From a virus (taxonomy: Duplodnaviria; Heunggongvirae; Uroviricota; Caudoviricetes), in the IMG/VR virus record IMGVR_UViG_2675903650_000004, positions 1 to 30,314 of that record: a DNA stretch of 30,314 bases; one strand, 5' to 3'. The position numbers were made by a program, and so were the translations under genes. The notes under the pieces were generated by a model. The model had not been told where the DNA came from, did not search any database, and saw only the letters and a program-made list of their open reading frames with translations. The stretch's first letter is position 1, and each line of letters opens with the position of its first letter. This document shows, piece by piece, positions 29,239-29,360 of this stretch.

Positions 29239-29245
29239 AACCACC

Positions 29246-29277
29246 GTGGTAATAGTTACCGTTGTGGTAATAGTACC
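29246..29277. repeat. tandem direct repeat GTGGTAATAGT(T)ACC x2 directly upstream of terS
   Basis: Two copies with period 18 in the 5' untranslated region of terS; each contains inverted GGTAA...TTACC half-sites. Confidence 0.7.
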
Positions 29278-29280
29278 ATG

Positions 29281-29307
29281 CAAAATAAAGCCGCCATAGT
29301 TGGCGGC
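29281..29307 (-). terminator. intrinsic terminator (minus strand) upstream of terS
   Basis: On minus strand: GCCGCC-AACTAT-GGCGGC followed by TTTATTTTG. Confidence 0.55.
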
Positions 29308-29348
29308 AGTATTCAAAACCCATCAAATTCATCATGCATAATCTACTC

Positions 29349-29360
29349 GTGACATGTCAC
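29349..29360. repeat. perfect 12-bp palindrome GTGACATGTCAC, copy 3 of 3
   Basis: Overlaps stop of ORF 29357..29704. Confidence 0.8.

What the first reader, a model, noticed from the sequence alone, without database searches (positions are those of the whole stretch)
29239..29356. Tandem repeats and a terminator in the terS 5' region: candidate packaging or translational control site
Two copies of GTGGTAATAGT(T)ACC lie 8-36 nt upstream of the terS start and overlap its ribosome-binding region. A minus-strand intrinsic terminator (about 29281..29307) lies just beyond, so terS-terL appear insulated from the upstream DUF551/Zn-ribbon genes. Repeats at this position in other phages serve as TerS recognition (pac/cos-proximal) sites or as operators for translational autoregulation.
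Basis: partly seen in the sequence, partly recalled or inferred. Interest (0 to 1): 0.5.

Follow-up and report, generated by a model that had tools for sequence, protein, structure and literature searches.

The report
Prophage repressor operators before terminase gene
The two short repeats in front of this prophage's DNA-packaging gene are two side-by-side copies of the binding site for the phage's own lysogeny repressor, placed just after a transcription stop signal; this is an ordinary silencing switch, already annotated in the related phage epsilon15, not a packaging signal.

Summary
The direct repeat GTGGTAATAGT (29246-29256, 29264-29274) and a minus-strand intrinsic terminator (stem-loop 29307..29290, T-tail to 29282) lie just upstream of terS. 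The window is an epsilon15/phiV10-like (Uetakevirus) prophage.

The repeats are the visible part of two tandem 17-bp palindromes, ATTACC-N5-GGTAAT: O1 at 29255-29271 and O2 at 29237-29253, one mismatch each. This palindrome occurs 9-12 times per related genome, against about 0.05 expected, and clusters on both sides of the repressor gene. The epsilon15 GenBank record labels the site homologous to O1 as a repressor-binding site.

In 80 species-diverse loci, the site in front of terS goes with the rest of this operator network, not with TerS similarity. An invariant TGnTAnnAT (extended -10) abuts O1 in 97 of 98 loci, which suggests a small repressor-controlled terS promoter.

I found no support for a pac/cos site or for TerS translational autoregulation. 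The operator hairpins show no compensatory base changes, and the motif is multi-copy.

Verdict: already known kind, low interest. Unexplained extra: a perfect 12-bp palindrome, GTGACATGTCAC, present three times per genome beside terminators and bracketing terS-terL.

The parts
29282..29307 (-). Intrinsic terminator: stem-loop GCCGCCA-ACTA-TGGCGGC (29307..29290) plus tail TTTATTTT (29289..29282). It ends the upstream Zn-ribbon/DUF551 operon.
   Evidence: The homologous hairpin is annotated as a rho-independent terminator in epsilon15 (39646..39672). It is conserved in most of the 80 IMG/VR loci and absent where a umuD-like gene is inserted.
29270..29278 (-). Inferred extended -10 promoter element TGGTACTAT (TGnTAnnAT). 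Its last two bases are the first two of O1. The predicted start of transcription is near 29263.
   Evidence: T, G, T, A, A and T are invariant in 23 distinct sequences while the n positions vary. 97 of 98 loci fit TGnTAnnAT, against 3 of 156 flanks of other operators. This is an inference; no start site has been mapped.
29255..29271 (.). O1, the distal repressor operator: ATTACC-ACAAC-GGTAAC on the gene strand, one mismatch to ATTACC-N5-GGTAAT.
   Evidence: It is homologous to the epsilon15 feature 'protein_bind repressor' at 12..27. The left half-site is invariant and the spacer is free to vary.
29237..29253 (.). O2, the proximal and weaker operator: ATTACC-ACGGT-GGTTAT on the gene strand. 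It overlaps the Shine-Dalgarno sequence and the first ATG, and lies 18 bp centre to centre from O1.
   Evidence: It carries 1-3 mismatches in relatives, is lost in Klebsiella phage Kp4865-1, and is absent in the Rahnella-type loci, where a single operator contains the SD.
29246..29274 (+). Each copy is the end of an operator spacer, the GGTAAT half-site and 3 nt of flank.
29241..29245 (-). Shine-Dalgarno GGTGG of terS, inside O2.
   Evidence: Sequence. Invariant GGTG(G) in the alignment.
28642..29235 (-). terS (small terminase, 197 aa from the second ATG).
   Evidence: Pfam PF03592, PHROG 51, SF6 G1P 3ZQP E=1.1e-6. Homologues start MPAE....
29310..29336 (-). Relic of the 3' end of a 71-aa gene (MHDEFDGF*). 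The gene is intact between the palindrome and the terminator in related loci.
29349..29360 (.). Perfect palindrome GTGACATGTCAC overlapping the stop codon of the Zn-ribbon gene. It is one of three copies in the window; the others are at 27084-27095 and 9590-9601.
   Evidence: Function unknown.
26095..26111 (.). Further operator of the same network (ATTACCTTTCAGGTAAG), upstream of the head-gene block. It is followed on the gene strand by CATATGTGGTT (26054..26044).
   Evidence: It is homologous to the epsilon15 repressor site at 2931..2947.
7090..7106 (.). Further operator (ATTACCTTTCAGGTGAT) between the small ant-like ORF and the tailspike gene.
   Evidence: It is homologous to the epsilon15 site at 19895..19911.
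8537..8553 (.). Further operator-like site (ATTACCTCAAGGGTAAA, 1 mismatch) in the Bro-N/antirepressor region.

Best explanation
The repeats are two tandem operators (O1 at 29255-29271, O2 at 29237-29253) for the prophage's CI-like repressor. This is the epsilon15/SPC32H 'Rep' type, which is tetrameric and carries two HTH domains. The operators lie immediately after an intrinsic terminator and overlap a small promoter with an extended -10 element (TGGTACTAT, 29278..29270).

In the lysogen, Rep bound to O1 and O2 would cover the -10/+1 region and the leader. This would keep terS-terL silent, both by occluding the promoter and by blocking any transcription that reads through from upstream. When Rep is inactivated by the phage antirepressor, the site is freed and the terminase genes are expressed.

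Shown: the anatomy, the identity of the motif with the palindrome that flanks the repressor gene, its genome-wide enrichment, and its conservation. Inferred: that Rep binds here, that TGnTAnnAT is a working promoter, and the direction of the effect.
For: 1. The window is an epsilon15/phiV10-like prophage. Its terS-upstream sequence is identical to phiV10 across the operator region.
2. The epsilon15 record NC_004775.2 annotates seven 'repressor' binding sites. One is 20 nt upstream of terS (12..27). Three lie beside the repressor gene, and all share ATTACC-N5-GGTAAT.
3. Sites with at most 1 mismatch: epsilon15 11, phiV10 9, TL-2011b 12, SPC32H 12, window 5. Simulations gave 0.03-0.07, and never more than 1 in 200 runs.
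4. The sites cluster on both sides of rep in all four genomes.
5. The TL-2011b repressor is a homologue of SPC32H Rep (PDB 5D50, E=6.6e-42), with a conserved N-terminal HTH. Rep is reported to bind palindromic sites as a tetramer (PMC9638917).
6. The site is conserved upstream of terS in 15 species-level loci from 13 genera. In these, the spacers vary freely and the half-sites do not.
7. The site upstream of terS co-occurs with the same motif elsewhere in the locus: 12 loci have both, 64 have neither, and 3 have only the near site (short upstream flanks). TerS homologues at 60% identity lack it, while one at 53% has it.
8. TGnTAnnAT abuts O1 in 97 of 98 loci, against 3 of 156 control flanks.
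9. The operator is kept where the terminator is replaced by a LexA-box/umuD-like gene.
Against: No binding, footprint or transcription data for this site were available to me. The basis of the epsilon15 annotation is not stated in the record, and I could not retrieve the 2007 genome paper or the SPC32H Rep papers.

The window does not contain the repressor gene, so cognate immunity was checked only in phiV10 and TL-2011b, which share the sequence. No -35 element is evident, and the consensus scan did not call a promoter here. O2 is degenerate in several lineages.

The Shine-Dalgarno sequence lies inside an operator in every lineage. A purely DNA-level model does not require this.
Confidence: 0.78

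Rival explanations
1. The operators act only as a roadblock. There is no promoter here. terS-terL are transcribed by read-through or antitermination of the upstream terminator, and bound Rep simply stops elongating polymerase, as mycobacteriophage L5 'stoperators' do.
For: No -35 element is present and the consensus scan called no promoter. In the umuD-carrying relatives nothing but the operator separates an SOS-controlled gene from terS. A functional SD sits inside or behind the operator, so the mRNA must start upstream of it.
Against: The TGnTAnnAT pattern is invariant at exactly the extended -10 positions and variable at the others, in 97 of 98 loci. In Rahnella-type loci the scan does call a promoter, TTGGCG-16-TATGAT with an upstream TG, abutting the operator.
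Confidence: 0.2
2. The repeats form an RNA element. Once transcribed they fold into a hairpin that hides the terS Shine-Dalgarno sequence and start codon, giving translational control, possibly by TerS itself.
For: The 106-nt region folds at -38.8 kcal/mol (z = -6.2) into a long hairpin covering the SD and AUG. One outer pair changes A-U to G-C in six sequences. The SD lies inside a palindrome in all lineages.
Against: Tandem palindromes fold well by construction. The two operator hairpins show 0 compensatory pairs; 14 of 23 and 15 of 23 sequences carry a mismatch at individual pairs. The single covarying pair is confined to one lineage. A leader starting at the predicted start site folds no better than shuffles (-9.3 kcal/mol, z = -0.73). 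No Rfam family reaches threshold.
Confidence: 0.08
3. The repeats are the TerS recognition part of a pac or cos site.
For: The position at the 5' edge of terS resembles SPP1 pacL and lambda cosB (established knowledge). TerS has an SF6/SPP1-like DNA-binding N-terminus (3ZQP). The relative Tyrion is reported as terminally redundant and circularly permuted, i.e. a headful packager that needs a pac site somewhere (PMC5754475).
Against: The motif occurs 9-12 times per genome and is concentrated around the repressor gene. Its presence follows the operator network, not TerS similarity. The starts of GenBank records near this spot are conventions: phiV10 starts right after the stop codon of the last gene, and epsilon15 right after the terminator.
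Confidence: 0.04

Closest known systems
Predicted repressor-binding site upstream of terS in Salmonella phage epsilon15 (NC_004775.2, feature 12..27)
   Same: Orthologous position: terminator, then TGnTAnnAT, then the palindrome, then terS. Same half-sites ATTACC/GGTAAT and same 5-nt spacer length.
   Different: In the window and in phiV10 the outer base of the right half-site is C. The second, proximal palindrome (O2) and the extended -10 reading are not annotated in epsilon15. The epsilon15 annotation appears to be a prediction; I found no binding data.
Lambda CI with its OR/OL operators
   Same: 17-bp partially symmetric operators arranged in tandem and overlapping a promoter, bound cooperatively by an oligomerising HTH repressor (established knowledge).
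   Different: In lambda, CI acts only at the two early promoters, and late and terminase genes are controlled indirectly through Q. Here the same operator also sits directly in front of terS and of other late gene blocks.
Phage P1 C1 repressor with dispersed operators; mycobacteriophage L5 gp71 'stoperators'
   Same: One immunity repressor has many sites spread over the genome, including within or before late operons, to silence the prophage (established knowledge).
   Different: P1 and L5 sites are asymmetric, whereas these are palindromes. Whether the sites here stop elongation or block initiation has not been tested.
SPP1/SF6 pacL-pacR and lambda cosB R sites (TerS recognition repeats)
   Same: Repeats at the 5' border of the small terminase gene; TerS is of the same Terminase_2/SF6 type.
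   Different: pac and cosB repeats are unique to the packaging site. This motif is multi-copy and centred on the immunity region.

Membership tests
Operator of the epsilon15/SPC32H-type Rep repressor | 17-bp palindrome matching ATTACC-N5-GGTAAT | tested here: met
   O1 and O2 each have one mismatch. Eight sites with at most 2 mismatches in the window, against 0.89 expected.
Operator of the epsilon15/SPC32H-type Rep repressor | The same motif is clustered on both sides of the cognate repressor gene (OL/OR) in the same phage | tested here: met
   Met in phiV10 and TL-2011b, which carry the same terS-upstream sequence, and in epsilon15 and SPC32H. The window itself ends before the repressor gene, so this was tested by proxy.
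Operator of the epsilon15/SPC32H-type Rep repressor | The cognate repressor is a Rep homologue | tested here: met
   TL-2011b gp10 against PDB 5D50: E=6.6e-42 over the full length.
Operator of the epsilon15/SPC32H-type Rep repressor | Physical binding by Rep and Rep-dependent repression | not testable with these tools
   Needs EMSA or footprinting, ChIP and reporter assays.
Intrinsic (rho-independent) terminator | G+C-rich hairpin followed by a U-run on the transcribed strand | tested here: met
   7-bp stem with 6 G-C pairs, 4-nt loop, then TTTATTTT. It forms in the minimum-energy fold.
Sigma-70 extended -10 promoter | TGnTATAAT-like element with conserved TG, -12T, -11A and -7T | tested here: met
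   TGGTACTAT in the window. TGnTAnnAT in 97 of 98 loci, against 3 of 156 controls.
Sigma-70 extended -10 promoter | A mapped transcription start about 7 nt downstream | not testable with these tools
   No transcript data available.
pac/cos TerS recognition site | A sequence unique to the packaging initiation region | tested here: not met
   9-12 copies per genome.
pac/cos TerS recognition site | Co-inheritance with the TerS DNA-binding specificity | tested here: not met
   Loci with 60% identical TerS lack the motif, while one at 53% identity with the operator network has it.
pac/cos TerS recognition site | Virion DNA ends or the packaging series start here | not testable with these tools
   Record starts are conventions. 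Sequencing reads from virions are needed.
Structured cis-regulatory RNA / translational operator | Base pairs maintained by compensatory changes | tested here: not met
   0 of 12 operator-hairpin pairs covary. 1 of 20 pairs covaries in the long hairpin, in one lineage only.

The most novel reading that the evidence does not exclude
The region may hold more than an operator pair. The terS-terL cassette is bracketed by a perfect 12-bp palindrome, GTGACATGTCAC. It occurs exactly three times per genome, always at the end of a gene next to an intrinsic terminator, and is conserved from Escherichia to Rahnella and Pantoea. One copy overlaps the stop codon of an uncharacterised protein encoded just upstream of terS, which has an Arg-rich N-terminus, a beta-alpha-alpha core and a zinc ribbon. 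If that protein recognises the palindrome (as DNA or as an RNA hairpin) to modulate the adjacent terminators, this would be an undescribed termination or antitermination switch for late genes of epsilon15-like phages. In that case the Rep operators, which also carry the terS Shine-Dalgarno sequence, would be a second layer of control.
Probability: 0.1. Interest if true: 0.6.

Novelty: already known. Interest (0 to 1): 0.2.

Why it matters
Mainly as a correction. Repeats next to a terminase gene are easily read as packaging signals. Here they are immunity operators, so they should not be used to predict genome ends or the packaging mode.

The result also shows that epsilon15-like prophages, which are common in E. 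coli (305 of 5,426 complete genomes carry at least 80% of this segment), put terminase expression under direct repressor control rather than only under an indirect late switch. That bears on how tightly such prophages are silenced.

Finally, it exposes a frequent annotation artefact. terS is often called 25-27 codons too long, reading through the operators and into the terminator.

Tried and rejected
- Rfam over the whole window at gathering thresholds found nothing in the region. A permissive scan gave only a sub-threshold rseX-like match (27.8 bits against 50), which is mostly the terminator hairpin.
- I tested two RNA structure models. The two-hairpin model shows no covariation, and the long hairpin shows one pair in one lineage.
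- I considered a Q-like arrangement of promoter, short transcript and terminator, starting from GTGACA-17/18-(-10) at the palindrome. The -10 is not conserved in Rahnella or Advenella relatives, so I dropped it.
- I considered GenBank record starts as clues to physical ends. phiV10 begins right after the last stop codon and epsilon15 right after the terminator, so these are conventions.
- Literature: I could not retrieve the epsilon15 genome paper, Casjens & Gilcrease, or the two SPC32H Rep papers. Papers on ZX5, Tyrion and the epsilon15 cryo-EM work say nothing about operators or pac sites beyond 'circularly permuted' for Tyrion.
- Zn-ribbon protein: no hit in Pfam, NCBIfam or PDB sequences. 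The AlphaFold model reached only pLDDT 65 and Foldseek found nothing.
- TerL has no Pfam or PDB sequence hit, so I could not classify the packaging type independently.
- I found no heteroimmune relative with a different operator sequence, so I could not run a specificity-swap test.

Full report
**What is there.** All relevant genes are on the minus strand: DUF551 (30268..29810), a 40-aa ORF, a 115-aa Zn-ribbon ORF (29704..29357), terS (29238 or 29235..28642) and terL (28645..27170). The direct repeat GTGGTAATAGT lies at 29246-29256 and 29264-29274. The longer pattern occurs nowhere else in the window, and 0 of 100 shuffles gave two matches. A textbook intrinsic terminator lies on the minus strand: stem-loop 29307..29290, then TTTATTTT to 29282. 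terS most likely starts at the second ATG (29235). Relatives begin MPAE..., and GGTGG (29245..29241) is then 5 nt upstream.

**Which phage.** The segment is 92-99% identical to phiV10, TL-2011b and other Uetakevirus (epsilon15-like) phages. It is common in E. coli: 305 of 5,426 complete genomes carry at least 80% of it.

**The conserved unit is a palindrome, not the direct repeat.** I collected 80 IMG/VR loci, GenBank phages and 80 loci taken from a one-genome-per-species collection. Across these, the sequence in front of terS reads, on the gene strand, TGnTAnn-ATTACC-N5-GGTAAY-(1-4 nt)-ATTACY-N5-GGTAAY-ATG. The half-sites are invariant or nearly so. The 5-nt spacers vary freely: ACAAC, AAAAC, TGCAT, TAAAA and others. 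In the window the two palindromes are O1 (29255-29271) and O2 (29237-29253), each one mismatch from ATTACC-N5-GGTAAT.

**Identity of the palindrome.** The curated epsilon15 record (NC_004775.2) carries seven 'protein_bind: repressor (lysogeny)' features. One (12..27) lies 20 nt before terS, and three lie beside the repressor gene gp38. All seven read ATTACC-N5-GGTAAT. My own scan gave these counts of sites with at most one mismatch:
- epsilon15: 11
- phiV10: 9
- TL-2011b: 12
- SPC32H: 12
- the window: 5

Simulated sequences gave 0.03-0.07 sites, and never more than 1 in 200 runs. In every genome the sites cluster on both sides of the repressor gene in an OL/OR-like layout, for example SPC32H 33527/33603/33665 and 34389/34406/34436 around rep at 33739..34335. 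Further sites recur at fixed places: before terS, before the head genes, between ant and the tailspike gene, before the lysis genes, and as a pair 62 bp apart after the replication genes. The TL-2011b repressor is a full-length homologue of SPC32H Rep (PDB 5D50, E=6.6e-42) with a conserved N-terminal HTH. Rep is described as a tetramer that binds palindromic sites and is taken apart by an antirepressor (PMC9638917 and PMC9986798). The window ends before the repressor gene, so phiV10, whose terS-upstream sequence is identical to the window's, serves as proxy.

**Operator or packaging site.** Among the 80 loci from the one-genome-per-species collection, a site within 140 nt of terS goes together with further sites elsewhere in the locus: 12 loci have both and 64 have neither. 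Three loci have only the near site, and these have very short upstream flanks. One locus has only distant sites. TerS homologues at 60% identity (L108, L112) lack the motif entirely, while a Pantoea locus at 53% identity that has the operator network keeps it. The motif thus travels with the immunity system, not with TerS. Being multi-copy, it cannot define a unique packaging start. TerS does resemble SF6/SPP1 G1P (3ZQP), and Tyrion is reported as circularly permuted. A pac site must therefore exist somewhere and may well be near terS, but nothing ties it to these repeats. GenBank record starts near this spot are conventions.

**Operator or RNA.** The region folds strongly as RNA (-38.8 kcal/mol, z = -6.2), with the Shine-Dalgarno sequence and AUG paired. 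Tandem palindromes, however, fold well by construction. On 23 distinct sequences the two operator hairpins show no compensatory change, and mismatches accumulate at individual pairs (14 of 23 and 15 of 23 sequences). The long hairpin has one A-U to G-C pair, confined to the Salmonella lineage. A leader beginning at the predicted start site is no more stable than shuffles. No Rfam family reaches threshold. I keep an RNA role only as a minor possibility. One observation still favours some coupling: in every lineage the terS Shine-Dalgarno sequence sits inside an operator. In Rahnella-type loci a single operator reads ATTACC-GTGGA-GGTAAT-TATT-ATG.

**A likely promoter.** Immediately 5' of O1, the bases T, G, T, A, A and T of TGnTAnnAT are invariant while the n positions vary. 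The pattern holds in 97 of 98 loci, in 9 sequence variants, against 3 of 156 flanks of other operators. This is the signature of an extended -10 element (TGGTACTAT, 29278..29270). It would start transcription near 29263, inside the O1 spacer. In Rahnella-type loci the consensus scan itself calls TTGGCG-16-TATGAT with an upstream TG at this spot. This step is inferred. No -35 element is visible and the scan did not call a promoter in the window.

**How it most likely works.** The terminator closes the upstream operon. Directly behind it sits a weak promoter that needs no -35 element, and the first operator overlaps its -10/+1 region. The second operator, 18 bp away, covers the leader and the ribosome-binding site. 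The 18-bp spacing resembles the 17-bp spacing of adjacent OR sites in epsilon15. In the lysogen, a Rep tetramer on O1 and O2 keeps terS-terL off and also blocks any read-through. That second function matters in relatives where the terminator is replaced by a umuD-like gene with a perfect LexA box and only the operator remains. Inactivation of Rep frees the site. Whether repression acts on initiation or on elongation remains open, so I list the roadblock-only version as the main rival.

**Comparison and novelty.** This is an ordinary repressor-operator arrangement. Its particular feature is direct repressor control of the terminase and other late blocks, as with the dispersed P1 C1 operators or the L5 stoperators rather than the lambda scheme. 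That feature is already implicit in the epsilon15 annotation. I therefore rate it as already known, with low interest.

**Loose ends.** The perfect palindrome GTGACATGTCAC occurs three times in the window (9590, 27084, 29349). Three copies are also present in epsilon15 and SPC32H; the phiV10 and TL-2011b scans returned two exact copies each, and phiV10's third straddles the start of the linear record. Each copy lies at the end of a gene and touches or lies near an intrinsic terminator, and two of them bracket terS-terL. It is present upstream of terS in 76 of 80 IMG/VR loci and is conserved out to Rahnella, Advenella and Pantoea relatives. One copy overlaps the stop codon of the Zn-ribbon protein. 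That protein has no Pfam or PDB relatives and gave only a moderate AlphaFold model, with an Arg-rich helix and a beta-alpha-alpha core. A second motif, CATATGTGGTT, follows several secondary operators by about 45 nt and may mark late promoters. Neither is explained.

Noticed in passing
window 29349-29360, 27084-27095, 9590-9601: The perfect 12-bp palindrome GTGACATGTCAC occurs three times. Each copy lies at a gene end and abuts or lies near an intrinsic terminator, and two copies bracket terS-terL. Copies sit at the same positions in epsilon15, phiV10, TL-2011b and SPC32H, and the palindrome is conserved in distant genera. Function unknown; possibilities include a protein-binding site, termination control or a module boundary.
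   Followed up: partly
window 29357-29704 (minus strand): This 115-aa protein (PHROG 536, 'transcriptional regulator') has an Arg-rich N-terminus, a predicted beta-alpha-alpha core and a C-terminal CxxC...CPC zinc ribbon. It has no Pfam, NCBIfam or PDB match. The AlphaFold model reached pLDDT 65 and Foldseek found nothing. It is always encoded just upstream of the palindrome and terS.
   Followed up: partly
window 26054..26044 and 7061..7051 (minus strand); phiV10 3308, 20921, 24739, 35116: The motif CATATGTGGTT (with variants) lies about 45 nt downstream of the secondary repressor operators, before the head, tailspike, lysis and post-replication gene blocks. It is a candidate late-promoter element and is absent before terS.
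   Followed up: partly
window 7522-7706 (+ strand), with an operator-like site at 7470-7486: Rfam isrK (63.5 bits) and C4 antisense RNA (66 bits) lie back to back, upstream of a Bro-N antirepressor-like ORF. An ATTACC-N5-GGTAAT-like site (2 mismatches) lies about 35 nt upstream.
   Followed up: no
window 26433-26509 (+ strand): A tRNA-Arg (anticodon TCT) lies between terL and the head genes, opposite in orientation to the structural genes. SPC32H has a tRNA-Arg at the same place.
   Followed up: no
window 29283-29368 (minus strand): A sub-threshold Rfam match to the Hfq-binding sRNA rseX (27.8 bits against a gathering score of 50) spans the palindrome to the terminator. The alignment is carried mostly by the terminator hairpin, so it is probably chance.
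   Followed up: partly
window 29239-29316 (minus strand): Gene callers often extend terS to 222-224 aa from a TTG at 29316, reading through the terminator and both operators. Examples are the phiV10 p01 annotation and cluster P0001 with 1,383 members. This is an annotation artefact.
   Followed up: partly
window 29310-29336 (minus strand); L004 722-970: The stretch between the palindrome and the terminator is the relic 3' end (MHDEFDGF*) of a 71-aa gene. That gene is intact at this position in about a quarter of related loci.
   Followed up: yes
L090 1860-2240; also L059, L079, L080, L083, L084, L093, L095: In some relatives a umuD-like gene with a perfect LexA box (TACTGTTTAAATATACAGTA) replaces the terminator between the Zn-ribbon gene and terS. 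The repressor operator is retained.
   Followed up: partly
window 27170-28645 (minus strand): The large terminase has no Pfam-A hit at E<0.01 and no PDB sequence hit. Only PHROG 2 and PHROG 5902 recognise it.
   Followed up: no
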